Origin: Eledone cirrhosa | Lineage: Eukaryota | Direction of reading: 5' to 3' | Assembly: GCA_964016885.1 (NCBI GenBank) | Contig: OZ024749.1 | Location: 34,100,001-34,164,000, forward strand | DNA length: 64,000 nt | Shown here: positions 2,614 to 63,112 of the stretch, in pieces | Layout: the number at the start of each line of letters is the position of its first letter | How positions within the stretch are numbered: the first letter of the stretch is position 1 | The notes under the pieces: generated by a model | Told to the model about the DNA's origin: nothing | The model's database searches: none | The model's input: the letters and a program-made list of their open reading frames with translations, nothing else | Made by a program: the position numbers and the translations under genes

Positions 2614-2850
2614 ATATATATATATATATATATTCTTTATTTCGTCACACAGTCCGTGACCTGGTCATTGACACAGTTCCTCAAAATGTAATGTTATATG
2701 ATATTGGAGTTGTATGTTTCTGGTTTGAAGGTGCATGACTTATTGGATAGAGTGTTAGGCGGCGCGTTGTGACATTCAGCAATACACTACTTGATATTAC
2801 TTGTCCATTTGATAGAACGCGAGAAACCAATATTATTATTCTGGATTGAC

Positions 2851-3032
2851 AGTATCAGTAGATGGTCGGACGCTATGCTGCAAGGCAGCACAGAGTTACG
2901 GCCCTTTGCGGTCTAAGTTCAAATCCCGCCGAGGTTAACTTTCCCTTTCCTCCTTACAAGGTCGATAAAATAAAGCACCAGTAATGCACTGGGATAATTG
3001 CTGGCCTTGTGCCAAAAATAGAAGCATTTATT
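2851..3032 (+). mobile_element. tRNA-derived SINE (family A, Deu/Nin-like core)
   Basis: A-box-like tgacagtatcag, B-box gttcaaatcccg, core ccttacaaggtcgataaaataaagcaccag, tail gctggccttgtgccaaaa. Confidence 0.85.
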
Positions 3033-3926
3033 ATGCTAGGCGCCTTATATCTTCTTTACGAAAACATTTTGTCTCTACATGCTATTGAACCAACATAATT
3101 TTAAAGAAATCTATTGTCTGCTGAAATACTAAGGCAATAAAGAATAGTAACTCCTTATATGTTAATTTATACTCTTACTTTTCCAGATCGTGTCAGGGAG
3201 ATTATATTTCCATTCATCTTTCTATTGCTCCTAATATTCTGCAGGTTGCAACTCCTGGCAGGATGGGGCAGTGTTTGGGCTCAGAACGCACAGAGCCATA
3301 TAGAACCCTGAAAAGCATCTCGTCCCAACATTTAAGAATTTCATCAATCCATTAACACATTCATTGGTAATATATTTATCGATTGTGAAAGTACCAAAGA
3401 GTTCGATAGGATTTGAACTCAACAACCAAAGAGCCGGGAAAAATACTGAAGCATTTAATTCGACACACGAACTGTCTAGCCATTGTGCTGCCTTGTCCAT
3501 TGTATTGAACGTGAACTATGATGAACGAAGGATAAAAGTACATTACATTAAATATGGAGGTATCGGCATAAATGAATGATAATGGCAGCCATGTTTTAAT
3601 TTCGTATGAACAATTTCTTGTGAATACTAATGCTACAATTCTAGTTACGCGTGACCCGAATAAATACGCAGACATTACATAAATAATAATGCTTGCTTAT
3701 ATAATCAATGTCGATTATTTACGCTGTCAATATTGTTATTCTTGTTGTGTATATTGTTAATACGCCTGCTGTTTCTACTCTTTCACAGAAGTAATTTATC
3801 GTCCTCAGGGCCCTATATGAAAAACAGTTGGTGTAAACAGCTGAAAGAGATATAAAATGATTAACGTATTCACGCCAGCATAAGGTAAAAGGTAATTATG
3901 TATATACGTAGCAACGCATATACGCC

Positions 3927-7092: not shown

Positions 7093-7095
<3 letters not shown>

Positions 7096-7139
7096 ATGAT
7101 TTCTAATGAATGAAACAGTTCTAGTCCTGTAGAATCTCA

Positions 7140-7143
<4 letters not shown>
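7093..7143 (+). mobile_element. Fragment of HHR cassette family 1 between TA tracts
   Basis: tgatgatttctaatgaatgaaacagttctagtcctgtagaatctcatct, matches 7938-7986. Confidence 0.8.
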
Positions 7144-7593: not shown

Positions 7594-7624
7594 TATATAT
7601 ATATATATAGTTTTAATATAGATG

Positions 7625-7675
7625 AGATTCTACAGGACTAGAACTGTTTCATACTTTAGAAATCATCAGGAATCT
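7625..7675 (-). ncRNA. Type I hammerhead ribozyme (inverted-arm copy)
   Basis: Reverse complement of 7931-7981 with one stem II change. Confidence 0.8.
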
Positions 7676-7846
7676 GGGTATCAAAAAATAAATATGGTAT
7701 TTATAGGCCTCTTCAGGTGGTAGGAGAGGGTGGGGAGTGGGATGGGTGGAGGTCATTGGTTGATAGAATTCTTTCTGCCTTTGTTACTCTAAATATAAAT
7801 TATAGCTTTAAAGAATTAGCTTTTAATGAATTCCCTTTTCTATCAA

Positions 7847-7908
7847 CCAATGACCTCTACCCATCCCACTCCCCACCCTCTCCTACCACCTGAAGAGACC
7901 TATAAATA
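7847..7908 (+). promoter_or_regulatory. Putative Pol II promoter (CCAAT, CACCC-rich tract, TATAAATA) upstream of the HHR
   Basis: CCAAT 7847-7851, ccccaccc ~7871, TATAAATA 7901-7908, 30 nt before HHR helix I. Confidence 0.45.
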
Positions 7909-7930
7909 CCATATTTATTGTTTGATACCC

Positions 7931-7981
7931 AGATTCCTGATGATTTCTAAAGAATGAAACAGTTCTAGTCCTGTAGAATCT
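7931..7981 (+). ncRNA. Type I hammerhead ribozyme
   Basis: AGATTC CTGATGA tttct-aa-agaat GAAA CAG-ttctagtc-CTG TA GAATCT; 6-bp helix I, full stem III, GUA cleavage after 7975. Confidence 0.9.
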
Positions 7982-8067
7982 CATCTATATTAAAACTGTT
8001 ATACTCTGCTTTGTATTGAGTACCTTACTTACTGTGGTTACCTCCGATTCAACCCGGAGTAACGTAC

Positions 8068-9060: not shown

Positions 9061-9254
9061 GATGGGGTGTGGTAAAAAAACCAGGTAGACCATAACCCAC
9101 CAGAGTACTCGACTTAGGGTAGTAGAGTGGTTAATAGGAAAAGAGTCAGGTCCCCGACGGCTGAGCTCCGGCCGTTTCGACAGCTAGATCTCAACGTTCA
9201 GATCTAGCTGTCAAAACGGCCGGAGCTCAGCCTTCGGGGTCCTGACTCTTTTCA
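9061..9254 (-). mobile_element. Fold-back cassette, family 2
   Basis: Palindrome centred ~9195 (gaaaagagtcagg..ctgactcttttc) with tail to the left; (TA)n flanks. Confidence 0.9.
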
Positions 9255-9258
9255 TATA

Positions 9259-9309: not shown

Positions 9310-9498
9310 CGAAGGAAATGTGGTAAGGAACCAGGTGGACCATAACGCACCAAAGTACTCAATACTTAGGGTAGTAGAGTGGGTAATAGGAACGAGTATG
9401 ACCCCGACGGCTGAGCTCAAGCCGTTTCGACGGCTAATTCTGGACTCAGAATTAGCCGTCGAAACGACTTGAGCTCAGCCGTCGGGGTCCTACTCGTT

Positions 9499-9501
<3 letters not shown>
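9308..9501 (-). mobile_element. Fold-back cassette, family 2
   Basis: Palindrome centred ~9444; tail contains gtactcaatacttagggtagtagagt (bulged hairpin on minus strand). Confidence 0.9.
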
Positions 9502-11123: not shown

Positions 11124-11300
11124 TAGGAAAAGAGTTAGGACCCGACAGCTGAGCTCCGGCCGTTTCGACAGCTAGTTCGGATCTAGCTGTCGAAACGGCC
11201 GGAGCTTCGAGAGTCGGGGACCTGACTCTTTTCCTATTACCCACTCTACGAGTACTCTGGTGCGTTATGGCCCACTTGGTATCTTACCACACCTTCTTTG
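11124..11300 (+). mobile_element. Fold-back cassette, family 2
   Basis: Palindrome centred ~11178; internally deleted tail hairpin (actctacgagtact). Confidence 0.88.
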
Positions 11301-11542
11301 TTTAATATATATATATATAAAATCAATAATAATGAGTTCAAATCTCAGGCGATCATTTACAATGAAATAGCTCGAAGAAAGACTATTCTGAGCCGTGTAA
11401 TATAGGTTAACACAAATCAATATATTTGATAAACAAATCCTCATATTTATGTATGTATTGTAAATGACCAAGTTAGCTAGATAGAAATATACTAATAATA
11501 TATATATCGTACTGCCTCACTGTTTTGTTCCCGTTCCATTTT

Positions 11543-11576
<34 letters not shown>

Positions 11577-11582
<6 letters not shown>

Positions 11583-12018
11583 ATGAAATAACAGGAGGCT
11601 GGACTGGTGTAAATCCTTGAAAAGTTTATTATACTATGATCATTTCAATGACCGGGTTCCATATGAATCCGGTGTTATCATCAGGTATTGGAATATAACA
11701 AAGGAATATGTAAAAGGTCTCTGTCTCTGATTTTTCGGACCCATGGCCTTTTACAGATTCCTTTGTTATATTTCAATACCTGATGATAACACCGGATTCA
11801 TATGGAACCCGGTCATTGAAATGATCATAGTATAATAAACCTTTCAAGGATTTACACTAGTCCAGCCTCCTGTTATTTCATTTATAATTAACTCCGTATT
11901 CGCACCACAAACGAAGATGGATGAACTGCACTGCGTTGAGTACTCTTCACAATATTACACCAGGATTGACCATACGGAATGACCAGTTCTATCCAGTGGT
12001 GAACCAACAAACCTAAAG
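11577..12018 (+). mobile_element. Fold-back HHR cassette, family 4 (~140-bp arms plus tail)
   Basis: Arms 11577-11718 and 11745-11886; tail ACTC-CGTA...TGCG-tt-GAGT 11891-11941; (TA)n flanks. Confidence 0.9.
11776..11833 (+). ncRNA. Type I hammerhead ribozyme (mirror copy on minus strand at 11631-11688)
   Basis: atac CTGATGA ..accgg-attc-atat-ggaa-cccggt.. GAAA tgatca TA gtat; palindromic stem III. Confidence 0.8.
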
Positions 12019-13154: not shown

Positions 13155-13582
13155 ATTGTTATACTTTGGGGGGGGGGGGGTAATGTTGCCAATAAGAAGC
13201 ACACGCACCAGTTGCTTTCACTTCAATTTATTATAATAAATTTATAAATTTAGGAATTTATAAATTTCCGGTTGGTTGGTTGGTTCCACAACCAGATGGC
13301 TGTTTATATATTGTCAAAGTTCTTTCGTCACACATTCTATGACCTGTTCAGTGACTGGGGATTCTTTTCTTTGTTTTTGTGCCTCTCCTTTGTTCTGTCC
13401 TACGCCATCTTGTTTCTGTGTGTGTGTTGTGTGCTCAGTCTGCGCATGCGCCACATCCGGGTGTGTCTGTGTGTGTTTATATTCGTTTATTTATTTGTTT
13501 ATTTACATGTTACGGGGTTGTTTGTTCTATGTGCGTGTGTGTTTTCATTTTGTCCTTAATTGTAAGTTGTGATGTTGCTGTT
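13155..13582 (-). mobile_element. 3' UTR / pLTR of the PLE, with variant HHR at 13313-13355
   Basis: Downstream of the GIY-YIG ORF; minus strand gtca CTGAACAG gtca..tgac GAAA gaac TT tgac; GCGCATGCGC and AAGATGGCG motifs upstream of it. Confidence 0.6.
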
Positions 13583-14560
13583 CTACTCATGTTTTCTATT
13601 TAATTTTGGTTGTAATTCTTTTATGTTTATTGCCTCTGTGATTTGTCTAAACATTGCGTCTTTTCTGTGTGTAGATTCTATTTTTATTTCTATGTTCTCT
13701 AATTTACCCTTATGTTCTATGTTAGCATGTTGGTAGAGTACAGATGATTCTTTACTATCTTGAAGGTCTCGCCAGTGTTCATTTATCCGTTCCCCTACAC
13801 TACGAGCTGTCTCACCTATGTACACTATATTTTTATCTCTACATTGTCCTTCAGTACATCTTATGCTATATACTACATTTCTAGTTTTACAGTTAATATG
13901 GGGGATTAATTTACAGGTTATACATTTCTTATCTATACAGGGGAGTCTTTGAAAAGGGTATGTCTTGCTAATAAGTGTTTTTATGGAGGTACCTGGTCTT
14001 TCTACTATCTTAATATTGAGTTTATGTTTATCTAGGGCCCTTCTAAATTTGTAAGCTAATTCACCTCTAGGGGTTGTATCGATGAACATTACACTCTGGT
14101 ATTTATTGCTATCATACCATGAGTTTATTCTATTAGCCTTATTCCTAGTTCTTTCTATTCTATTCCAAAATTTGCTCCTATACAAGGGGTAGGTCCCATT
14201 TGTGTCATTATTTACCATTTTTTCCCATTTGGTTCTGGCTCCTCTATACACTCTGATTTTATCTCTCTGATTGTAACCAGAGAACTGCATATGGTGGATA
14301 AAGTGTTGTATGTGTCTCTCTAGTTCTTCGGGGTTGCACATGCGGGACACGTTTCTCATCACCCGTACCAAATCCGCAATCAGTATGTTGATTTTGGTAT
14401 GGTCCGAAACAGCTGAGTTTCGGTGGATCAGAAATTTGGAAGTCATGGGTTTGGCATAATGGGAATGGAGGATTTGTTTTTTGTTATTAATGGTATCTAA
14501 ACCAGAGCTCTGTGTCTAGTACAGGTAATCGATGGTTGGGGTGTTTGCTTGGGTAGTCTA
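13583..14560 (-). pseudogene. Penelope-like element ORF fragment: RT primer grip/thumb, Cys linker, GIY-YIG endonuclease
   Basis: Frameshifted upstream VTIDYPSKHPNHRLPVLDTELW..HYAKPM, then 287 aa with PCIDKKCITC, NVVYSIRC..YIGETARSVGERINEH..H..EA..I..PKLNR. Confidence 0.92.
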
Positions 14561-17344: not shown

Positions 17345-17855
17345 ATAAGTTAAAACAATGAAATAAAAAATCAAGTCATTAGAGATATACTTCACTGCTT
17401 TACGATCGTTTCTAGATGATGATAATATATTGTAGCTATATTTCGTTATTTATGTATGTAAGGCTAGTTACAAAATATCAGACAAAGAGAATATTTACTT
17501 ACATGCATATCACCAACTGTTTTCAAAAGCAATCATTGCTTTTGAAAACAGCTGGTGATATGCATGTTAGTAAATATTCTCTTTGTCTGATATTTTGTAA
17601 CTAACCTTACATAGATAAATAACCAAGTATAGCTACAATGTATTATCATCATCTAGAAACGATCGTAAAGCAGTGAAGTATATCTCTAATGACTTGATTT
17701 TTTTATTTCATTGTTTTAACTTATATCATGACTCTGTTTTCCTTTTAATGTTTTATTGTTTTCCGGGATTTATCTTAACCTACAACATTTTCAACATATG
17801 GATTACATTGAGTTCTTCATGCAGAACAGACCCCACAACTTACCGTGGATATCTC

Positions 17856-17856
<1 letters not shown>
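17345..17856 (+). mobile_element. Near-perfect ~190-bp-arm fold-back cassette with decayed long-stem-II HHR and bulged-hairpin tail
   Basis: Arms 17345-17532 and 17535-17722; ttgctt TTGAAAA cagctggtgata..tatcatcatcta GAAA cgatcg TA aagcag; tail ACTC-TGT..ACA-tt-GAGT 17731-17813. Confidence 0.85.
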
Positions 17857-19875: not shown

Positions 19876-20499
19876 TATATATATTTATATATGTGTGTGT
19901 GTGTGTGTGTCTGTCTGTCTGTCTGTCTCTGTGTGTGTCTGTGTTTGTGCGTGTCTATGTGTGTGTGTGTGTGTCTGTGTTTGTGTGTCTGTGTATGTCT
20001 GTGTGTGTGAGAGTGTTTGTCTGTGTGCAGAATATCCGCAAATAAAAGGACCAAAGAATACAATACTCAATCTAGTACAAGAGAGCTTATTTAGTTTATA
20101 TTAAAACGTCATATACTTAATATGTATGCACGATCTTAGGTTTCGGGGTCCAGTTATGGCCACCACTGCATAGTGGAGGAGCCGTTTTCACTCATCAGGC
20201 ACAAGGACAAATTTAAAGAAAAAACTGTTACCTCACGAAAATTGACCTGAGAAATTGTTGGCCTTGTGCCTAAATCAGAAACCATTATTATCAGCAATTA
20301 CTTATGCACGAAGCAGATAAAGAATTATACTATACTATAGTATACTACGACCCTATAGTAACTATAGAGTCGTAGTATACTATAGTATCTATGCAGTAAC
20401 ACTAATGGATGTAACTGAAGTTGAAAGAAATATGAATGTAAAGACAGAGATCAAAACGTCTTATTTACATATTTCTCTGTAGATTGAATAAGAGGAACA

Positions 20500-21148: not shown

Positions 21149-21425
<277 letters not shown>

Positions 21426-22227: not shown

Positions 22228-22234
<7 letters not shown>

Positions 22235-22660
22235 TGTAATAAACAACATAGTATGTTGGTTAAATTCCTGAAAACTGTAGAGTGCTCAACTAATCGGGCT
22301 GGAAAGTGCCAATCATATATGTAATATAGAATATGCTTCAATCAATCCCGGTTGGAGCTGTATAAATGAAGTAATTCCGTCGGAAAGGTCCAGGAAAAAA
22401 GAGTGCTCTATGTAGGTTACAGAGCTTAATAATTCCGACGGAATTACTTCATTTATACAGCTCCAACCGGGATTGATGGAAGCATATTCTATATTACATA
22501 TATGATTGGCACTTTCCAGCCCGATTAGTTGAGCACTCTACAGTTTTCAGGAATTTAACCAACATACTATGTTGTTTATTACATAACTATTAAGCTCTGT
22601 AACCTACATAGAGCACTCTTTTTTCCTCGACATTTCCGACGGAATTACTTCATTTATATA
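22228..22660 (+). mobile_element. Fold-back cassette, family 5, with circularly permuted ~200-bp arms
   Basis: Right arm 22433-22657 has terminal direct repeat ttccgacggaattacttcatttata; left arm is a permuted reverse complement; hairpin GCTC-TGTA-acc-TACA-ta-GAGC 22594-22614. Confidence 0.85.
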
Positions 22661-23611: not shown

Positions 23612-23783
23612 TTTATAGAAGGAGCTTCTACAGGACTAGTACTGTTTCATTCATCCTGAAGATTTCATCTGAATGAAACAGTACTAGTCCTGTAGAAGCT
23701 CCTTCTACAAAATAAAAATAAAAAAAAAATAAAAAATTTTACTCTGCCATGTATTGAGTACCTTACTTACTGTGGTTATCCCC
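23612..23783 (+). mobile_element. Fold-back HHR cassette, family 1
   Basis: Inversion junction just 5' of CTGAAGA tttca-tc-tgaat GAAA cag-tactagtc-ctg TA gaagct; hairpin 23741-23759. Confidence 0.88.
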
Positions 23784-23803
23784 GACTCAACCCGGGACCT
23801 ACG

Positions 23804-23831
<28 letters not shown>

Positions 23832-23834
<3 letters not shown>

Positions 23835-24023
23835 ATTGTTTCTACTTTAGGCACAAGGCCAGCAACTACCCAGTACATTACTGGTACTTTATTTTATCGA
23901 CCCCCGTAAGGATGAAAGGCAAAGTTAACCTCGGCGGGATGTGAACTCAGACTGTAAAGGGACGTAACTATGCTAGAAAACATGGCATCCAACCCTCTAC
24001 CGATACTGCCAATTCACCGCCCT
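23832..24023 (-). mobile_element. Family A SINE, full length
   Basis: Reverse complement of the family A consensus. Confidence 0.9.
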
Positions 24024-24034
24024 TATATATATAT

Positions 24035-24262
24035 AGTAATAATAATAAATTTGAAAACTAAAATCCAAAGTGGACTCGATAAGGATAAATATATATCAAA
24101 TATATAAGAACCGTAGAGCAAATATTTATTAAAATAACAGATTAAAGTTTAAGCAAAGAATCGCTGCTTTCACCCTTAACGGGATCTTCTGAAATTGTTT
24201 CAGAAGATCCCGTTAAGGGTGAAAGCAGCGATTCTTTGCTTAAACTTTAATCTGTTATTTTA

Positions 24263-24268
<6 letters not shown>
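24035..24268 (-). mobile_element. Fold-back cassette, family 3 (variant HHR core CAGAAGA)
   Basis: Perfect ~70-bp arms centred ~24196; tail to the left. Confidence 0.88.
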
Positions 24269-24718: not shown

Positions 24719-24912
24719 AGGAGAATGTTTTACCCCGACGGCAGAGCTCAAGCCGTTTCGACGGCTATTTCTGAGTCCAGAAATAGCCGTCGAAACTGCT
24801 TGAGCTCTGCCGTCGAGGTTAAACATTTTCCTATTACCCACTCTACTACCCTAAGTATTGTGTACTCTGGTACATTATGGTTCATCTGGTTCCTTACCAC
24901 ACTTCCTTCGTT
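24719..24912 (+). mobile_element. Fold-back cassette, family 2
   Basis: Palindrome centred ~24775 with compensatory ggcagagc/gctctgcc; tail ccactctactaccctaagtattg. Confidence 0.9.
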
Positions 24913-25934: not shown

Positions 25935-26326
25935 ATAATTGTTTCTACTTTTGGCACAAGGCCAACAATTACCCAGTGCATTACTGGTACTTCATTATAT
26001 CGACCCCGTAAGGATGAAAGGCAGAGTATAAAAAATAATAATTGTTTCTACTTTTGGCACAAGGCCAGCAATTATAAGTGTATTACTGGTACTTTATTTT
26101 ATCGACCCCGTAAGGATGAAAGGCAGAGTATAAAAAATAATAATTGTTTCTACTTTTGGCACAAGGCCAGCAATTATAAGTGTATTACTGGTACTTTATT
26201 TTATCGACCCCGTAAGGATGAAAGGCAAAGTTAACCTTGGCGGGATTTGAACTCAGATCGTAAAGGGACGTATCTACGCTGGAAAGCATGTCTGACCCTC
26301 TACCAATACTGCCAATTCACCGCCCT
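25935..26326 (-). mobile_element. Family A SINE with triplicated 3' half
   Basis: Three ~105-bp core-plus-tail units and one head; TSD-like gag(c/t)gtaatataata at 25923 and 26327. Confidence 0.88.
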
Positions 26327-28860: not shown

Positions 28861-28996
28861 GACAATGATAGCTAATGAAACATTGTGAGGATAACGGAGG
28901 CAGAGACATGTATGAATATGCTTAGTTAGTTATTGGTAAATGTCAGCGGATTGTATCCTAGCGCCATGTCGGAGACATGTTATTACTCTATGATAT

Positions 28997-29545
28997 TGGT
29001 GGTGGATTGGTAGTATCGGTAGCGGGTCGGACGCCATGCTTTCCAGCATAGTTACGTCCCTTTACGATCTGAGTTCAAATCCCGCCGAGGTTGACTTTAC
29101 CTTTCATCCTTACGGGGTCGATAAAATAAAGTACCAGTAATGCACTGGGTAATTGCTGGCCTTGTGCCAAAAGTAGAAACAGTTATTGGCAGTATCGGTA
29201 GAGGGTCGGACGCCATGCTTTCCAGCATAGTTACGTCCCTTTACGATATGAGTTCAAATCCCGCCGAGGTTGACTTTACCTTTCATCCTTACGGGGTCGA
29301 TAAAATAAAGTACCAGTAATGCACTGGGTAATTGCTGGCCTTGTGCCAAAAGTAGAAACAGTTATTGGCAGTATCGGTAGAGGGTCGGACGCCATGCTTT
29401 CCAGCATAGTTACGTCCCTTTACGATCTAAGTTCAAATCCCGCCGAGGATGACTTTACCTTTCATCCTTACGGGGTCGATAAAATAAAGTACCAGTAATG
29501 CACTGGGTAATTGCTGGCCTTGTGCCTAAAGTAGAAACAGTTATT
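28997..29545 (+). mobile_element. Head-to-tail trimer of family A SINE (~180-bp unit)
   Basis: Three near-identical units; single TSD ttattactctatgatatt at ~28980 and ~29541. Confidence 0.92.
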
Positions 29546-29831
29546 ACTCTATGATATTAAGATGAGAAGCTTATAAATATAAGCGATATTGGGTAAAGTC
29601 CAATTATCAACGTTGGGCGACCATCGATTATATTAAAACCAGATGTGTCTTGATTTAGATTTGTGTGTATGTTGGTGTGATCGTCTGTTTAACTGTAATC
29701 TAGGGTACTTTTCTACATTTCTGTATACACACGTACACACACATACACACACAGACAAACGTATATATATACATATATATATATGTGTGTGTGTGTGTGT
29801 GTACGTGTGTATACATATGTGTGTACGCGTG

Positions 29832-34892: not shown

Positions 34893-34896
<4 letters not shown>

Positions 34897-35090
34897 AACC
34901 AGTAAGACCCCGACAGCTGAGCTCAAGCCGTTTCGACGGCTAATTCTGGACTGAGTCCAGAATTAGCCGTCGAAACGGCTTGAGCTCAGCTGTCGGGGTC
35001 TTACTGGTTCCTATTACCCACTCTACTACCTCAAGTATTGAGTACTTTGGTGCGTTATGGTCCACCTGGTTCCTTACCACATTTCCTTCG

Positions 35091-35092
<2 letters not shown>
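34893..35092 (+). mobile_element. Fold-back cassette, family 2 (perfect 60-bp arms)
   Basis: Centre ggactgagtcc ~34953; GAAA cggct-tgagctc-agctg TC gggg; hairpin 35020-35043. Confidence 0.92.
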
Positions 35093-35146
<54 letters not shown>

Positions 35147-35471
35147 TATTTCTATTAAAAATGTTATTATATTTATGTGCTGAGGGGGAAATGCTTCTTA
35201 ATTAGGGAGAGAAAGATCTTAGCTAATGGTGTGGCCACCTCCATATTATATGGTGGGTTATACCATATAATGCGTCGGGATCTATTTTTCCTTGGACTTT
35301 GGACTATGCTCATACTTAGTATATGCTACCTTAGTATATGCTACCTTAGTATATGCTACAAATCCACTCCAAGCAAGAGCTTAATTGTAATATTGGGTCA
35401 TCAAGTATGAAATTTGTAGAAATTTGTTTTTTTTCTACAATTTTCTACAAATTTCATACTTGATGGCCTTT

Positions 35472-40994: not shown

Positions 40995-40997
<3 letters not shown>

Positions 40998-41228
40998 AAA
41001 TAACAGATTAAAGTTGAAGCAAAGAAAGGCTGCTTTCACCCTTAACGGGATCTTCTGAAATTTAAAAAAAAAAAGATCCCGTTAACGGTGAAAGCAGCGT
41101 TTCTATGCTTAAACTTTAATCTGTTATTTTAATAAATATTTGCTCTATAGTTTTATATATTTTATATATATATTATCCTTATCGAGCTCTCTTCAGATTT
41201 TAGTCTTCACATTTATTATTACTATTAT
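40995..41228 (+). mobile_element. Fold-back cassette, family 3
   Basis: Arms aaaataacagattaaag../..ctttaatctgttatttt; tail GCTC-TA..TA-tc-GAGC 41142-41187. Confidence 0.85.
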
Positions 41229-41293
41229 AATATATATATATATATATAGTGAAGAAACATAAGTCAATTGCATGAACTCATAATCCTTTATTT

Positions 41294-45580: not shown

Positions 45581-45765
45581 ATAGAAAAAGAGTCAGGACC
45601 CCAACGGCTGAGCTCCGGCCGTTTCGATAGCTAGATCCGAACTGTTCGGATCTAGTTGTCGAAACGGCCGGAGCTCAGCCGTCGGTGTCCTGACTCTTTT
45701 CCTATTACCGACTCTACTACCCTAAGTATTGAGTGTTTTATGGTCCACCTGGTATCTTACCAGAC
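45581..45765 (+). mobile_element. Fold-back cassette, family 2
   Basis: Centre tccgaactgttcgga ~45643; tail actctactaccctaagtattgagt. Confidence 0.9.
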
Positions 45766-46659: not shown

Positions 46660-46920
46660 GATTTCATGGGCGAGAAAGACCAAAATCCAAAGAGGGCTCG
46701 ATAAGGATTGTATATATATATATATATATGATATAATATAATAAAAAGTATACATAAACCTGCAAAGCAAATATTTATTATAATTACAGATTAAAGTTTA
46801 AGAAAAGAATTTCTGCTTTCACCCAATTATGGGATTTTCTGAAACTCTGAGTTTCAGAAGATCCCGTAATAGGGTGAAAGCAGAGATGATTTGCTTAAAC
46901 TTTAATCTGTACTTATAATA
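46660..46920 (-). mobile_element. Fold-back cassette, family 3
   Basis: Centre gaaactctgagtttc ~46848; agttt CAGAAGA tccc..gggt GAAA gca..tgc TT aaact. Confidence 0.85.
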
Positions 46921-49602: not shown

Positions 49603-49644
49603 AGAGAGAAAGCGGGAGAAGAAGACGTTGCTCACATATAGTAA

Positions 49645-49838
49645 TAATAATTGTTTCTACTTTTGGCACAAGGCCAGCAATTACCTCAGTACATTACTGG
49701 TACTTTATTTTATCGACCCCCCGTAAGGATGAAAGGCAAAGTTAACCTCGGCGGGATTTGAACTCAGAATGGCAAGGGGCGTAACTCTATGCGTCAAAGC
49801 ATGGTGTCCGACCTTCTACCGATACTGTCAATCCACAG
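49645..49838 (-). mobile_element. Family A SINE
   Basis: Full length; agtaataata-like direct repeat on both sides. Confidence 0.88.
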
Positions 49839-52356: not shown

Positions 52357-52360
<4 letters not shown>

Positions 52361-52548
52361 AAGTATAACCCCGACGGCAGAGCTCAAGCCGTTTCGACGG
52401 CTATTTCTGTCCAGAAATAGTCGTCGAAACGGCTTGAGCTCTGCCGTCGGGGACATACTTTTTCCTATTACCCACTCTACTACCCTAAGTATTGAGTACT
52501 CTGGTGCATTATGGTGTATCTGGTTCCTTACCACACACCTCCTTCGTT
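52357..52548 (+). mobile_element. Fold-back cassette, family 2
   Basis: Centre ttctgtccagaa ~52410; full tail with bulged hairpin. Confidence 0.9.
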
Positions 52549-53100
52549 ATATATATATATATATATATATATATAGGAACAAGTATGACCCCGATGCGTG
52601 TATGTGTGCTTGTGTCTGTGCGTGTATGTGTTTGTGTCTTTGTGTTTATGTCTGTATCTGAGTGTGTGTGTGTGTGCCACATTTCATTTAATACATTACG
52701 CTACTATCGATAAAAGTTAGGTGAAGTAATTATGCTATCGCTACCGTCATCTCCCTTATCATTAAGGTATAACTACTTTAACAACATAAATTTCATTCGC
52801 TTCAACTTTTACGTCTATTTCACCAACATTATCATCATAGTGGTAAAATGATTGTCGATTTGTGATTTTCTACATTAAATAAATAAATAGAGAGTTTAAT
52901 TAAACATTAAGTTTAATTACCATATCACGAAACTACCAGTCTTCCAATGGAATCAAATTTAACAAACGTAAAATACATGAAAGCTGAAATAAATTTTGAA
53001 GTAGAATATAGCTGTTATCTTCCGCTATTTTAGTTCGTTTCACACAATTTTACGAGACCTGTCATAAAGAACCTAATGTGATGTGATATACTTCAACATT

Positions 53101-54144
53101 AATTGTTTCTACTTTTGGCACAAGGCCAGCAATTACCCAGTACATTACTGCTACTTTATTTTATCGACCCCGTAAGGATGAAAGGCAAAGTCAACGTCGG
53201 CGGGATTTGAACTCAGACCGTAAAGGGACGTAACTATGCTGGAAAGCACGGCGTCCGACTCTCTACCGATACTGCCAATCCACCGCCCTAACATGGCGTC
53301 CGACTCTCTACAGATACTGCCAATCCACCGCCCTAACATGGCGTCCGACCCTCTACAGATACTGCCAATCCACCGCCCTAACATGGCGTCCGACTCTCTA
53401 CCGATACTGCCAATCCACCGCCCTAACATGGCGTCCGACCCTCTACCGATACTGCCAATCCACCGCCCTAACATGGCGTCCGACCCTCTACCGATACTGC
53501 CAATCCACCGCCCTAACATGGCGTCCGACCCTCTACAGATACTGCCAATCCACCGCCCTAACATGGAGTCCGACCCTCTACAGATACTGCCAATCCACCG
53601 CCCTAACATGGCGTCCGACCCTCTACCGACACTGCCAATCCACCGCCCTAACATGGAGTCCGACCCTCTACAGATACTGCCAATCCACCGCCCTAACATG
53701 GCGTCCGACCCTCTACCGATACTGCCAATCCACCGCCCTAACACGGCGTCCGACCCTCTACCGATACTGCCAATCCACCGCCCTAACATGGCGTCCGACC
53801 CTCTACCGATACTGCCAATCCACCGCCCTAACATGGCGTCCGACCCTCTACCGATACTGCCAATCCACCGCCCTAACATGGCGTCCGACCCTCTACCGAT
53901 ACTGCCAATCCACCGCCCTAACATGGAGTCCGACCCTCTACAGATACTGCCAATCCACCGCCCTAACATGGCGTCCGACCCTCTACCGATACTGCCAATC
54001 CACCGCCCTAACATGGCGTCCGACCCTCTACAGATACTGCCAATCCACCGCCCTAACATGGCGTCCGACCCTCTACCGATACTGCCAATCCACCGCCCTA
54101 ACATGGAGTCCGACCCTCTACCGATACTGCCAATCCACCGCCCT
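53101..54144 (-). mobile_element. Family A SINE whose 45-bp 5' head is amplified ~20x in tandem
   Basis: Unit acatggcgtccgaccctctaccgatactgccaatccaccgcccta from ~53247 to 54144, contiguous with SINE body 53101-53246. Confidence 0.95.
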
Positions 54145-54159
54145 ATACTTCAACATTAA

Positions 54160-56625: not shown

Positions 56626-57272
56626 ATACGTGCATACATTCATACATACATACATAAGCCTACAGATATAAAGAACAGAGCTTCTATCACATATATATTA
56701 TCGATCTTTACCAATAAGCTCTCAGTGAAGTTATATAAATATAGCAAGCTGGGTACAATTGTAAGGAATAAGATTGATATCATAATAGATAAAAAAAAAC
56801 ATTCTTAAAGCAAAGAAGCAGCAGCTAGTTACATACCAGAATCTATGATAATATATAACATACATACATACATGCACACAAACATGCATACATACATACA
56901 TACATACATGCACACAAACATACATACATGCATACATACATACATGCACACAAACATACATACATACATACATACATACATACATACATGCACACAAACA
57001 TACATACATACATACATACATACATACCTGCACACAAACATACATACATACATGCACACACAAACATACATACATACATACATGCATATATCACCCTCCC
57101 TGTCCCCATCTTCTGTGACCCTACAGCCCTTGTCTTGCCCTTCCTTTTCCGTTTTCATAACCACAAAAGACACTTGCTTTTTTAACAATCAAGAATGCAT
57201 ACATTCATGATCGTTGCCCCCTCGTTATCGAGTATGGCCATTGCACGATATAACATTATTAATAATTATCAA

Positions 57273-57462
57273 TAGGGCGGTGGATTGGCAGTATCGGTGG
57301 AGGGTCGGACGCCATGCTTTCCAGCATAGTTATGTCCCTTTACGGCCTGAGTTCAAATCCCGCCGAGGTTAACTTTGCCTTTCATTCTTACGGGTCGATA
57401 AAATAAAGTACCAGTAATGTACTGGTAATTGATGGCCTTGTGCCAAAAGTGGAAACAATTAT
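57273..57462 (+). mobile_element. Family A SINE nested in an (ATGT)n-tailed element
   Basis: TSD attattaataattatcaat at ~57256 and ~57458. Confidence 0.92.
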
Positions 57463-57831
57463 TAATAATTATCAATTAATTCTATCGTACAATGCCTGTG
57501 CGTAAAGATTTTTTTTAAAGTGAGGAAAGACTGTGCACTGAGCCAATCCCACTCTCTGAGCGACAGTAGCTATAACAAGAAAAGATCAACATCATCGGTA
57601 ACTACTGAGCCGCAGGTTTTAGGTCGGAGTTATCCCAGTTTCCTGAGTTGCCTTCTCCTAGAAGAATGCCCTGACAAAGGCTAGGGGTCCTTCACTCCCA
57701 GTGGTTTAACCGCGAAATCGGGTATCCAGCCCGATTATTTCTATGTCCCCGCGCATATATATGCATATATGTATGTATATATATATATATATGTATGCCT
57801 GTGTAATTTACATGTGTAAATATGTATATAC

Positions 57832-60989: not shown

Positions 60990-61067
60990 TATATATGTAT
61001 AACAATATGTATATATATATATATATATATATTTAAAAGAATAGAGGTGTAACACACGAGTTATGAT

Positions 61068-61577
61068 ATATTGGTAAAAGGAAAAGAAAATGCTGACAAA
61101 TTGTTCCCAGTGAAAAATTGTTTAATTAGGTATAAGTAAAAATTTGTAATAGTATTGATTAGTATTCAGTTATGGTTTTAAGTTTTTACCGGTTGCGCAT
61201 TTCTAATGCTTTTCAAAAATAATTTTGAGATAGAGCTCCCGTGATGTTTGCTCTAATCTGATTAGTTTTGGAAATTCTACCTGTTTTATGTAAAAAAAGT
61301 GGCTCCAGATGTATGAAAAAATTCTTGTGGTCAAAACAATTTTGATTGGTCGGTAGAGGTCATGTGAATGTAAAAAATTGATTTTGCGCCAAATGTAGGT
61401 TTGTCTCGGCTGATTGAGAAGTCACTGAAAAATAAGTCTTTCAAGACAAATATGTGTGTTAGTAGTAGTAGTAGTAGTAGTAGTAGTAAAGAGGTTCGTT
61501 GTTGTGATAATGGTCAGCAGGATGTGTGTGCGAACCGCAGCCTGCTGACAGGTCAACAGTTCAGATGCCTATTAAGA

Positions 61578-61642
<65 letters not shown>

Positions 61643-62880
61643 CAGAGTAATTCGTGGTAGAGGGATCGGTCAGTAGGAATGTGTCTGTACGCGTGTGGAG
61701 GATATTTTAACATGTTAAAAGATATTTTTCAGCTCTTGTCTTATACGGAGAAGTGTGTGTGTGTGTGTGTGTGTGTGTGTCTCTTTGTATGTTAATGTAT
61801 GCGTGTGTATGTGTGTGTGTATATATGTGTGTGTGTGTGTGTGTGAATGTGTGGGTGTGGGGGTGGACCAGTATTTTTGTGATACTGGTAAAAATGGTGT
61901 ACATTATTCGATATTTTCAGTAAAAACGATTCTCTCAATAGAACATCAAAAACCTTAATAACAAAAGGTGTGAAATGATATATAGTATTGTCATAACACC
62001 AAGGTGTGTGTGAGTGTCCAGATTGTACGTACTGCAAGGGGAATCCATTAGGCCTTGCCGTATTGGAATACTTGTGTACAAATATGTATCTGCCCATCAG
62101 TGTGCAATGCATGTGTGCGTATAGGTATGTGTGTGTGTAGGCACGTTTATATCTATAGACATCAAAAGGTATGCAAATTTGTGTATATTTGTGTTGCACC
62201 ATAGAACATGTGTGTTTATGTATGTCATTGTGTTTATATGTGGATAGAGATGTATGCTGATGTAGGTATGTATGTTGACGTGTGTATGTTGTGGGTTCGT
62301 CTTAGGGAGAAGTGTTTAGACGGGGTCCGTATTTGTTAATAAAGTGAGATTCCTTGCTGATGCGCTGGGTGTGGGTGGCATTATCTTTAAATTTGTAGAG
62401 GGGAAAGATTCTGAAGTTGGGATGATTTTGGGCGGCACAGGTATCAATGTGTTCACTCAGTGGTATTTTCCTGTATTCCCGTATTCTAATTTGGGATCTA
62501 TGGACAGTCATGCGTTGGCGGAGGCTGTTTTTGGTCTGGCCTATGTATTGTTCTCGACAACCTGAGCAAGTTAATACATATATTAGATTTTCTGATGCGC
62601 ATGTGAAATTGTGTTTTACTATAAAACGTTGTCCTTCTTTGAAATAGAATTCCGAACCCTTAAAACAGGTAGAATTTCCAAAACTAATCAGATTAGAGCA
62701 AACATCACGGGCGCTCTATCTCAAAATTATTTTTGAAAAGCATTAGAAATGCGCAACCGGTAAAAACTTAAAACCAAAACTGAATACTAACCAATACTAT
62801 TACTAATTTTTACTTATACCTAATTAAACTATTTTTCACTGGGAACAATTTGTCAGCATTTTCTTTTCCTTTTACCAATA
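61068..62880 (-). mobile_element. 5'-truncated Penelope-like element with inverted pLTR (~220-bp terminal inverted repeat)
   Basis: 61068-61288 is the reverse complement of 62661-62880; GIY-YIG domain inside; TA flanks. Confidence 0.9.
62302..62646 (-). pseudogene. PLE GIY-YIG endonuclease domain (Neptune-like, CCHH)
   Basis: YFKEGQRFIVKHNFTCASENLIYVLTCSGCREQYIGQTKNSLRQRMTVHRSQI..LSEHIDTC..RISKESHFINKYGPRLN. Confidence 0.92.
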
Positions 62881-62887
62881 TATATAT

Positions 62888-63112
62888 ATAAATGAAGTAT
62901 TTCCGTCGGAAAGGTACAGGAAAAAAGAGTGCTCTATGTAGGCTACAGAGCTTATTAGTTATGTAATAAACAACATAAGATAATTATTTCATTTACCAGT
63001 GGTTTCTTGAAGGCAGATGTTATGTCTGTCTTCAGTCGTCAGAATGAATAAATATTTATTCATTCTGACTGAAGACAGACATAACATCTGCCTTCAAGAA
63101 ACCACATAACTA
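62888..63112 (-). mobile_element. Fold-back HHR cassette sharing the family 5 tail
   Basis: Tail matches 22570-22657; palindrome centred ~63053. Confidence 0.85.
62990..63046 (-). ncRNA. Type I hammerhead ribozyme
   Basis: catt CTGACGA ctgaagacaga-cataaca-tctgccttcaa GAAA cca-c-tgg TA aatg. Confidence 0.82.

What the first reader, a model, noticed from the sequence alone, without database searches (positions are those of the whole stretch)
17345..17856. Fold-back centres cluster at the 5' edge of the ribozyme
Seen: centres at ~17533, ~21315, ~23655, ~24196, ~46848 and ~63053 lie in or just upstream of HHR helix I or the core. In family 1 a TATA box sits 30 nt before helix I. Inference: the template RNA starts just before the HHR, is copied uncleaved, and the RT turns around at the RNA 5' end. 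Copies 7610 and 11577 extend further upstream and would come from longer transcripts.
Basis: inference. Interest (0 to 1): 0.7.

Follow-up and report, generated by a model that had tools for sequence, protein, structure and literature searches.

The report
Penelope palindromes joined at ribozyme edge
These short mirror-image insertions in an animal genome have the known layout of Penelope-type jumping-gene pieces, and in four of five families with a whole self-cutting RNA motif the mirror point sits at the motif's first bases, likely because the copied RNA starts there, which would let the DNA junctions be used to map RNA start sites and to test how these elements make inverted copies.

Summary
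The six listed centres are real and lie 2-11 nt before a type I hammerhead core; the TATA box is exactly 30 nt before helix I. The list is selective: of 19 non-microsatellite palindromes, 7 join at helix I, 2 further upstream, 7 (one family) inside helix II, 3 have no hammerhead. Genome-wide reads for family 1 show a 10-20-fold depth step at helix I, and 8 of 12 listed inversion joints at 7933-7939, none upstream. Junctions are private to each locus, so they form at insertion. The anatomy (inverted arm, tail on one end, (TA)n target, hammerhead) is the published Penelope-like-element layout. A template 5' end at a TATA/Inr start site is the likeliest cause of the clustering, but no RNA run was available. 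'RT turns round' is less likely than two cDNAs primed from both sides of one cut and joined head to head: 9 of 19 centres have 0-1 nt, and twice the tail-less arm reaches further 5'. The scan noted this two-ended model before on other DNA of this genome. I found the junction-at-helix-I pattern in none of 8 paper searches. Known kind, new and testable detail.

The parts
17348..17533 (-). Short inverted arm of the headline element: whole hammerhead, no tail; outer end runs into (TA)n through a TAT overlap
   Evidence: same end (17726 equivalent) into (TA)n in 15 contigs and 25 reads
17534..17534 (.). One-base centre (C on +, G 5' of the short arm's sense strand); nearly private to this locus
   Evidence: contig depth 39.6 over 17518-17529 against 39,000-159,000 at the arm's peaks
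17535..17541 (+). Helix I 5' strand, first bases of the long arm
   Evidence: pairs with 17668-17674
17542..17548 (+). Hammerhead core, U3:A8 variant of CUGANGA
   Evidence: the variant is described for PLE hammerheads in PMC4209133
17549..17655 (+). Long helix II (107 nt) holding an intron-like stretch 17566-17632 (GTAAGT in the short arm and in nearly all other copies, AG at the end)
   Evidence: T>A at 17568 in 111 of 112 and 76 of 77 reads, no skip joint; splicing untested
17656..17674 (+). GAAA, palindromic helix III (CGATCG), predicted cut after 17667, helix I 3' strand
17727..17856 (+). Tail, present on the long arm only, with a variant of the shared GAGYRC motif at 17808-17815; ends at (TG)n/(TA)n
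7609..8064 (+). Family 1 copy with promoter: short arm 7609-7768 (-), long arm from 7768; CCAAT 7847, TATAAATA 7901, Inr-like A 7931 = helix I start, core 7937, predicted cut after 7975, short-arm end 7997, tail motif 8016, long end about 8060
7094..7143 (+). Solo family 1 unit between (TA)n runs: starts at core base U4, ends near the short-arm end, no tail, no partner arm
21268..21425 (+). Family 1 palindrome, centre 21314.5 inside helix I; short arm ends in (CT)n
23616..23800 (+). Family 1 palindrome; long arm starts 2 nt before the core (23654), short arm stops in helix II
24036..24266 (-). Family 2 palindrome (core CAGAAGA), centre 24196 at helix I start; arms 69 of 69 identical
40996..41229 (+). 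Family 2 palindrome, centre about 41063; the tail-less arm keeps helix I and core, the tailed arm has an A run there
46690..46920 (-). Family 2 palindrome, one-base centre 46848 directly before helix I
62892..63105 (-). Palindrome with centre 63053.5, 2 nt before helix I; core 63042
11577..12016 (+). Palindrome whose arms reach 33 nt (and up to 62 nt) upstream of the core at 11780
34894..35091 (+). Example of family 9195 (7 copies: centres 9195.5, 9444.5, 11179, 24775.5, 34953, 45643, 52410.5): only the 3' half of a hammerhead, junction 17-21 nt before GAAA
22231..22658 (+). Palindrome without hammerhead; 201-nt permuted unit; the tail-less arm reaches 47 nt further 5' than the tailed arm
13345..14515 (-). 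3' part of a retroelement ORF (13583-14515) followed by NRF1- and YY1-like motifs (recalled labels) and a degenerate hammerhead at 13351: the pLTR order expected of an autonomous partner type
62302..62715 (-). GIY-YIG endonuclease fragment inside a 1.8-kb two-armed insertion (arms 61066-61288 and 62661-62883)
   Evidence: Pfam PF01541 E 1.7e-07

Best explanation
These are short two-armed insertions in (TA)n with the layout of Penelope-like (PLE) terminal repeats, likely made when a PLE enzyme primes two cDNAs from the two sides of one cut on an uncleaved RNA, and the junction likely falls at helix I because the RNA is predicted to start there. Shown: the layout, two fixed 3' ends flanking a shared tail motif, junctions private to each locus, and their clustering at helix I in four families. 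Inferred steps: (1) a promoter in the terminal repeat starts the RNA at or within about 10 nt of helix I, so the hammerhead is the RNA's 5' end; (2) the protein binds the tail and starts reverse transcription at two sites either side of it, one on each target strand; (3) both cDNAs run through the uncut ribozyme until they stall or run off the 5' end; (4) their 3' ends are joined head to head by an end-to-end template jump or 0-4 nt of microhomology. Copies 7803 and 11732 would come from read-through RNAs that contain the promoter; family 9195 would have its own fixed 5' end inside helix II.
For: Clustering: 7 of 9 whole-hammerhead palindromes, 4 of 5 families. Family 1 genome-wide: depth 129,000-197,000 over 7848-7907 against 2.0-2.2 million over 7948-7967 in contigs of X1; 77-80 against 1425-1573 in + mates of X7, flat upstream rather than decaying; 8 of 12 listed opposite-strand joints have their 5' end at 7933-7939, none further upstream; loose ends before 7933 have the inverted arm as consensus (351 and 419 reads). 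Family 17534: another locus starts at 17536 directly after (TA)n (13 reads), another joins its inverted arm at 17538 (1 contig). Two non-palindromic copies (1514, 21655) share sequence from 11 nt before C3 only. TATA at -30 and Inr at 7931; TATAAA at -41 of core 41344, background 2% per 11 positions. Made at insertion: arms pair by locus (distance 0.073 within, 0.177/0.179 between, family 9195). Two-ended: 0-1-nt centres in 9 of 19, too tight for a hairpin loop; second 3' end fixed (7 of 7 in family 9195; 434 and 548 reads at 7997; 17726); solo tail-less copy 7094; tail-less arm longer at 22409 and 41063. In vitro a PLE protein cut and extended both strands, started at two sites flanking the tail, and used uncleaved RNA (PMC11167929).
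Against: No RNA evidence for any start site. Only 2 of 9 cores have a TATA that fits; the shared upstream sequence of longer 17534-family copies shows no TATA near -30. 12 of 19 palindromes do not join at helix I. Positions 7933 and 7948-7951 vary between subfamilies, so alignment ends and joints pile up there for a technical reason, and diverged upstream sequence could deepen the depth step; the step in the - mates is only 5-6-fold (an EcoRI site at 7828 inflates upstream depth); 28 of 43 joints were not shown; X1 and X2 are one sample and RAD reads count few loci many times. Direct tandem joints put a 5' break at 7917-7921, 10-14 nt before the predicted start. One search gave only 2 joints and cannot say what share of copies stops at 17535. 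In 7803, 23661 and likely 11732 the tailed arm reaches further, as fold-back predicts; short-arm ends overlap the target repeat (TAT, or CT at 21268), as a switch to the target would give; 22409 comes from a permuted template and 41063 may have changed after insertion. No autonomous partner was tied to any family.
Confidence: 0.45

Rival explanations
1. One reading: one cDNA runs from the tail to the RNA 5' end at helix I, turns round on itself, copies itself back and jumps to the target at a TA overlap.
For: Same clustering data. The tailed arm reaches as far or further 5' in most asymmetric cases (7803, 23661, likely 11732). Short-arm ends overlap the flanking repeat, including (CT)n at 21268. 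Centres of 2-4 nt (9444.5, 24775.5, 52410.5, 24196) could be snap-back loops.
Against: 0-1-nt centres in 9 of 19; tail-less arm longer at 22409 and 41063; solo tail-less copy 7094 and direct tandem joints at the same second end; in family 9195 nearer TA overlaps are passed by and the same end is used 7 of 7 times.
Confidence: 0.25
2. The 5' edge is not a transcription start: copying stops or switches at helix I or helix II because the new cDNA can pair with its own earlier copy of the helix, or because an intron ends there as in Drosophila Penelope.
For: Family 9195 joins within what would be helix II; 21314.5 and the 17538 locus join at small palindromes in helix I. In family 1 CAG ends at 7932, and joints pile at 7933-7934; the Penelope intron ends at the 5' end of helix I (PMC4209133).
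Against: No AG before helix I at 17535, 63053, 1514 or 21655. Helix I self-pairing would give arms of about 20 nt, not arms with a whole hammerhead. Family 9195 centres differ in length and letters between copies, unlike an inherited loop. In the 17534 family depth stays flat along the 107-nt helix II in - mates of X7 (77-83).
Confidence: 0.15
3. Self-priming on an antisense RNA (Arkhipova 2013): the centre is where synthesis starts, from the folded-back 3' end of an antisense transcript.
For: Published reading of palindromes at head-to-head PLE junctions, also explaining intron retention (PMC3846280); the intron-like stretch in the 17534 family is retained.
Against: Gives no reason for two fixed outer ends around a shared tail motif; later in vitro work shows target-primed synthesis on sense RNA; needs antisense RNAs ending at helix I in four unrelated families.
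Confidence: 0.07
4. Ordinary random 5' truncation plus ascertainment: PLE copies are short and the hammerhead is near the 3' end, so recognisable copies seem to start at it.
For: New Chlamys PLE insertions have a median length of 128 bp (PMC9977147); 12 of 19 centres are elsewhere; alignment artefacts add to the step.
Against: Family-level P 0.009-0.00005; flat-then-step depth profile; family 9195 long arms start within 5 nt of each other across two subfamilies; 17534 joins 320 nt from its 3' end exactly at helix I.
Confidence: 0.08

Closest known systems
Inverted 5'-truncated pLTR plus one-sided tail of endonuclease-bearing Penelope-like elements (Craig et al. 2021, PMC8557442, passages; Arkhipova et al. 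2013, PMC3846280, parts 1-4 of 5)
   Same: Head-to-head inverted copy, tail on one end only, (TA)n target, palindromes at the junction, TATA and Inr motifs in the repeat.
   Different: Here the units are ORF-less and 150-450 nt, tails are about 65-130 nt rather than 30-40, and junctions fall at the first bases of helix I; those papers leave the mechanism open or propose antisense self-priming.
Minimal type I hammerheads of PLE terminal repeats (Cervera and de la Pena 2014, PMC4209133, parts 1-2 of 4)
   Same: Palindromic helix III, long helix II, U3:A8 core variant, pairs of motifs 100-700 bp apart on opposite strands, many single truncated copies.
   Different: That paper proposes cleavage and circular templates; these copies run through the uncut site and start at helix I. 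It does not map junctions in the parts read.
Anole Poseidon PAc in vitro (Frangieh et al. 2024, PMC11167929, parts 1-2 of 4)
   Same: Two internal start sites flanking the tail, both target strands cut and extended, uncleaved RNA as template, AT-rich target.
   Different: It does not follow the 5' junction or inverted products in the parts read; its start sites are not homologous to the target, while the ends here overlap TA.
Animal non-LTR retrozymes (PMC7229834, passages; bioRxiv 10.64898/2026.07.22.740005, part 1 of 5) and newt satellite 2 (promoter cited in PMC2220036, passage)
   Same: Non-coding, type I hammerhead, likely moved by PLE proteins; a 77-nt tandem form of family 1 exists in the reads. 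From recall only: newt ovary transcripts start a few dozen bases before the cut site and keep the ribozyme whole.
   Different: The window's copies are single head-to-head pairs, not tandem arrays, and their ends do not match cut-site-to-cut-site monomers.
LINE-1 twin-priming inversions (recalled)
   Same: Both target ends prime synthesis.
   Different: Twin priming inverts the 5' part without duplicating it; here the same 3' part is present twice.

Membership tests
Penelope-like element (PLE) terminal-repeat insertion | Inverted 5'-truncated copy joined head to head to a direct copy | tested here: met
   19 palindromes
Penelope-like element (PLE) terminal-repeat insertion | Tail on one end only | tested here: met
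   longer (about 65-130 nt) than the 30-40 bp in PMC8557442
Penelope-like element (PLE) terminal-repeat insertion | Type I hammerhead in the repeat, in the sense that leads into the tail | tested here: met
   9 of 19 whole, 7 of 19 3' half only, 3 none
Penelope-like element (PLE) terminal-repeat insertion | Insertion into microsatellite or AT-rich target | tested here: met
   (TA)n flanks
Penelope-like element (PLE) terminal-repeat insertion | RT plus GIY-YIG ORF linked to the same repeat (autonomous partner) | tested here: inconclusive
   No ORF in the short palindromes; separate GIY-YIG fragment and an ORF piece whose best relative is an RT-domain protein (RVT_1 below its cut-off); no family was tied to an ORF; no genome held
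Penelope-like element (PLE) terminal-repeat insertion | Retained spliceosomal intron near the 5' end | tested here: inconclusive
   Intron-like 17566-17632, no skipped form in DNA; no RNA
Type I hammerhead ribozyme | Core bases and helices I-III | tested here: met
   16 hits scoring 15 or more against 1 and 2 in two shuffles; 17 pattern matches against 1.8 expected; Rfam found none at gathering scores; folding z-scores weak, -1.9 to 0.8
Type I hammerhead ribozyme | Self-cleavage | not testable with these tools
   needs an in vitro assay
Non-LTR retrozyme | Tandem units each with a hammerhead | tested here: not met
   Window copies are single pairs; a 73-77-nt tandem form of family 1 appears only in reads
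Non-LTR retrozyme | Circular RNA | not testable with these tools
   no RNA holder listed
MITE / fold-back DNA transposon | Terminal inverted repeats with fixed internal structure | tested here: not met
   One end is an unpaired tail; centres differ between loci; arms pair by locus

The most novel reading that the evidence does not exclude
In several Penelope-like families the hammerhead is the very 5' end of a capped RNA and stays uncut during copying; two cDNAs primed on both sides of one cut run off that end and are joined to each other, so the thousands of palindrome centres in the genome are a fossil map of RNA start sites and a direct record of how PLE inverted repeats form.
Probability: 0.3. 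Interest if true: 0.68.

Novelty: new variant of a known kind. Interest (0 to 1): 0.45.

Why it matters
How PLEs make their head-to-head repeats and what their hammerheads do are stated as open in PMC8557442 and PMC11167929. If junctions mark the template's 5' end, the ribozyme is not cut before copying and sits at the RNA's start, and junction counts in any PLE-rich assembly can separate three mechanisms (two-ended priming, fold-back, antisense self-priming) without new experiments. The elements themselves are of a known kind.

Tried and rejected
Rfam at gathering scores found nothing. The inverted-repeat tool was swamped by microsatellites and the first self-BLAST timed out. No whole genome is held. 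No RNA holder listed. A metagenome scan for the family 9195 motif, meant to find its missing 5' half, gave 0 loci. Inherited master palindromes rejected: arms pair by locus and the 17534 centre is nearly private. Centres at the cut site rejected for this window (0 of 19; 1 of 12 listed joints touches 7975). A cap-derived G at the centre: seen at 17534, and only weakly or not in the other one-base centres (46848, 45643, 20360 are A/T); not used. A head-to-head join of two different families inside 22409: best match p 0.003 uncorrected among 20 tests and the motif reads both ways; not established. A permuted (type II) hammerhead in family 9195: no core downstream. The shuffle control was not usable. 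PMC5850863 is not held; newt start-site papers were seen only as references.

Full report
What is there. The window is AT-rich animal DNA full of microsatellites; the best relative of its longest retroelement ORF piece is labelled Octopus vulgaris by its source (61% identity). No whole genome is held. At 17348-17856 lies a palindrome between simple repeats: a short arm (17348-17533), one base (17534), and a long arm that repeats the short arm (179 of 187 columns identical) and goes on for a 130-nt tail. Each arm holds a type I hammerhead motif: helix I starts on the first base after the centre, the core is the U3:A8 variant, helix II is 107 nt with an intron-like stretch, and helix III is the palindrome CGATCG. 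Rfam does not detect these motifs, but a descriptor scan gives 16 hits scoring 15 or more against 1 and 2 in shuffles, and the plain core pattern 17 matches against 1.8 expected.

Check of the observation. All six listed centres lie 2-11 nt before the core; 41063.5 is a seventh. TATAAATA starts at 7901 and helix I at 7931, whose A fits an initiator (consensus recalled). 7803 and 11732 reach further upstream. An unbiased scan kept 66 centres; after dropping 47 by eye (46 in simple repeats, and 7507.5), 19 remain: 7 at helix I, 2 upstream, 7 of family 9195, 3 without hammerhead. Family 9195 has a good 3' half (GAAA, a 5-6-bp helix III, GUC) but no CUGANGA; its long arms all start 17-21 nt before GAAA, across two subfamilies. 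So the title holds for 7 of 9 whole-hammerhead palindromes (4 of 5 families; P 0.009 to 0.00005 under random truncation, window chosen afterwards) but for 7 of 19 overall. The wider rule is a fixed 5' end per family, which is helix I in four families.

Genome-wide test. No RNA holder was listed. I laid DNA data on single arms. Family 1 (7768-8064; two contig sets of one sample and two RAD read sets): contig depth is 129,000-197,000 over 7848-7907 and 2.0-2.2 million over 7948-7967; + mates give 77-80 against 1425-1573; - mates only 5-6-fold, because an EcoRI site at 7828 inflates upstream depth. The upstream profile is flat, not decaying. Of 43 joints 15 were shown; 12 change strand, with 5' ends at 7933-7939 (8), 7952-7955 (3) and 7975 (1), none upstream. 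Loose ends before 7933 have the inverted arm as consensus; those before 7934 are mixed (agreement 0.41-0.45). Two 3' ends run into (TA)n, at 7997 and 8054-8063. Caveats: 7933 and 7948-7951 vary between subfamilies, so alignments end there anyway, and diverged upstream sequence could deepen the step. Three joints go back 73-77 nt (7993/7994 to 7917/7921), a tandem form whose 5' break is 10-14 nt before the predicted start. The 17534 family (17518-17856): the window's own centre has depth 39.6 against tens of thousands in the arm, so it is nearly private; one other locus starts at 17536 straight after (TA)n (13 reads), another joins its inverted arm at 17538 (1 contig); some copies go on upstream with a shared AT-rich sequence lacking a TATA near -30 (7 contigs); the short-arm end 17726 recurs (15 contigs, 25 reads). 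Only 2 joints were listed, so the share of copies that stop at 17535 is unknown.

What it is. Inverted arm, one-sided tail, (TA)n target and hammerhead are the published layout of Penelope-like terminal repeats (PMC8557442 passages; PMC3846280 parts 1-4 of 5; PMC4209133 parts 1-2 of 4). The window also holds a GIY-YIG fragment, an ORF 3' part followed by promoter-like motifs and a degenerate hammerhead, and a tail motif GAGYRC in 7 of 10 tails against 6.5% background (motif picked by eye), which ties the families, 9195 included, to one machinery. No family was linked to its own ORF. Arms pair by locus rather than by arm type (0.073 within, 0.177 and 0.179 between; 9 of 14 arms nearest their own partner in family 9195, 3 of 6 in family 2), so each palindrome was made at insertion.

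How it likely works. The template was not cut: tailed arms run through the cut site, no centre of 19 is at it, and a PLE protein used uncleaved RNA in vitro (PMC11167929 parts 1-2 of 4). The fixed 5' end is most simply the RNA's start: the TATA-Inr spacing of family 1 points at the first base of helix I, core 41344 has a TATA 36 nt before helix I, and two non-palindromic copies share sequence from -11 only. Against this, only 2 of 9 cores have a fitting TATA, Drosophila Penelope starts 46 nt plus a 75-nt intron before helix I (PMC2377424 passages and Discussion), and there is no RNA evidence; I put the start-site reading near 0.55. For the second arm I prefer two cDNAs primed on both sides of one cut to a single turning RT: 9 of 19 centres have 0-1 nt (two of these have another reading), the short-arm end is fixed like a second start site, a solo tail-less copy exists (7094), and the tail-less arm reaches further 5' at 22409 (47 nt) and 41063 (9 nt), which a copy of the long arm cannot do. 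In vitro both strands were cut and extended from two starts flanking the tail. Fold-back keeps real support: the tailed arm is the longer in 7803, 23661 and likely 11732, short-arm ends overlap the target repeat, and both counter-examples are imperfect. Antisense self-priming, structure- or intron-set ends, and plain truncation (new PLE insertions of median 128 bp, PMC9977147 passage) rank lower.

Novelty. The kind is known. Eight paper searches and the parts read showed no report that junctions cluster at helix I or mark a start site; subscription papers, PMC5850863 and supplements were not seen. Retrozyme papers were read in part (PMC7229834 passages; bioRxiv 10.64898/2026.07.22.740005 part 1 of 5). 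A newt precedent for a promoter-set 5' end just before an intact hammerhead is recalled; only its references and a passage on the promoter were seen. Earlier notes of this scan reached the two-ended model for other families in this genome, and one reports turns nearer the cut site in a retrozyme family, so the helix I rule is family-specific. Verdict: observation real but selective, interpretation half supported, new variant of a known kind, interest 0.45.

Noticed in passing
window tails, e.g. 8016-8023, 17808-17815, 11936-11945, about 35040, about 62935 (-): A near-palindromic motif GAGYRC(TC), often able to pair with an upstream ACTC, lies between the two 3' ends in 7 of 10 families strictly and all 10 loosely; a candidate protein-binding signal.
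   Followed up: partly
window 7917-7993 (seen in reads): A high-depth tandem form of family 1 with a 73-77-nt unit that holds the whole hammerhead; a very small retrozyme-like repeat.
   Followed up: no
window 17566-17632: Intron-like stretch inside helix II of the hammerhead; splicing would shorten helix II. Retained in DNA copies.
   Followed up: partly
window 9134-9257, 9389-9500, 11125-11319, 24719-24911, 34894-35091, 45581-45765, 52357-52547: Family 9195: seven palindromes with only the 3' half of a hammerhead and a fixed start; source of the 5' end unexplained.
   Followed up: partly
window 22231-22658: Permuted 201-nt unit: each arm is about one unit long; the unit shares its tail with the 63053 element and has a 7-bp mirror at about 22568 that may be an older head-to-head junction.
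   Followed up: partly
window 61066-62883: 1.8-kb two-armed insertion whose outer ends lie at the same ORF position, as if the template was antisense to a GIY-YIG ORF.
   Followed up: no
window 35190-35468 (-): Palindrome on a PLE-like ORF piece, far from any hammerhead.
   Followed up: partly
window 1514+, 10066-, 18184-, 21655-, 41344-, 14633-, 13351-: Further hammerheads without a partner arm; helix III loops are different 6-nt palindromes (TATATA, TGCGCA, CTCGAG, TGATCA, CGATCG).
   Followed up: partly
window 13403-13451 (-): YY1- and NRF1-like motifs (labels recalled) 50-100 nt before a degenerate hammerhead at the 3' end of an ORF piece: a TATA-less promoter type.
   Followed up: no
window 2830-3034, 23833-24043, 26130-26326, 28979-29546, 49642-49836, 53100-53290, 57255-57467: Abundant SINE family of about 190 nt, with tandem copies at 29006-29546; resembles octopus SINEs from recall.
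   Followed up: no
window 53247-54145: 90-bp tandem array inside a SINE copy, with long open frames on both strands.
   Followed up: no
window 20332-20388: 28-bp-arm palindrome with one-base centre, not in (TA)n and without hammerhead.
   Followed up: no
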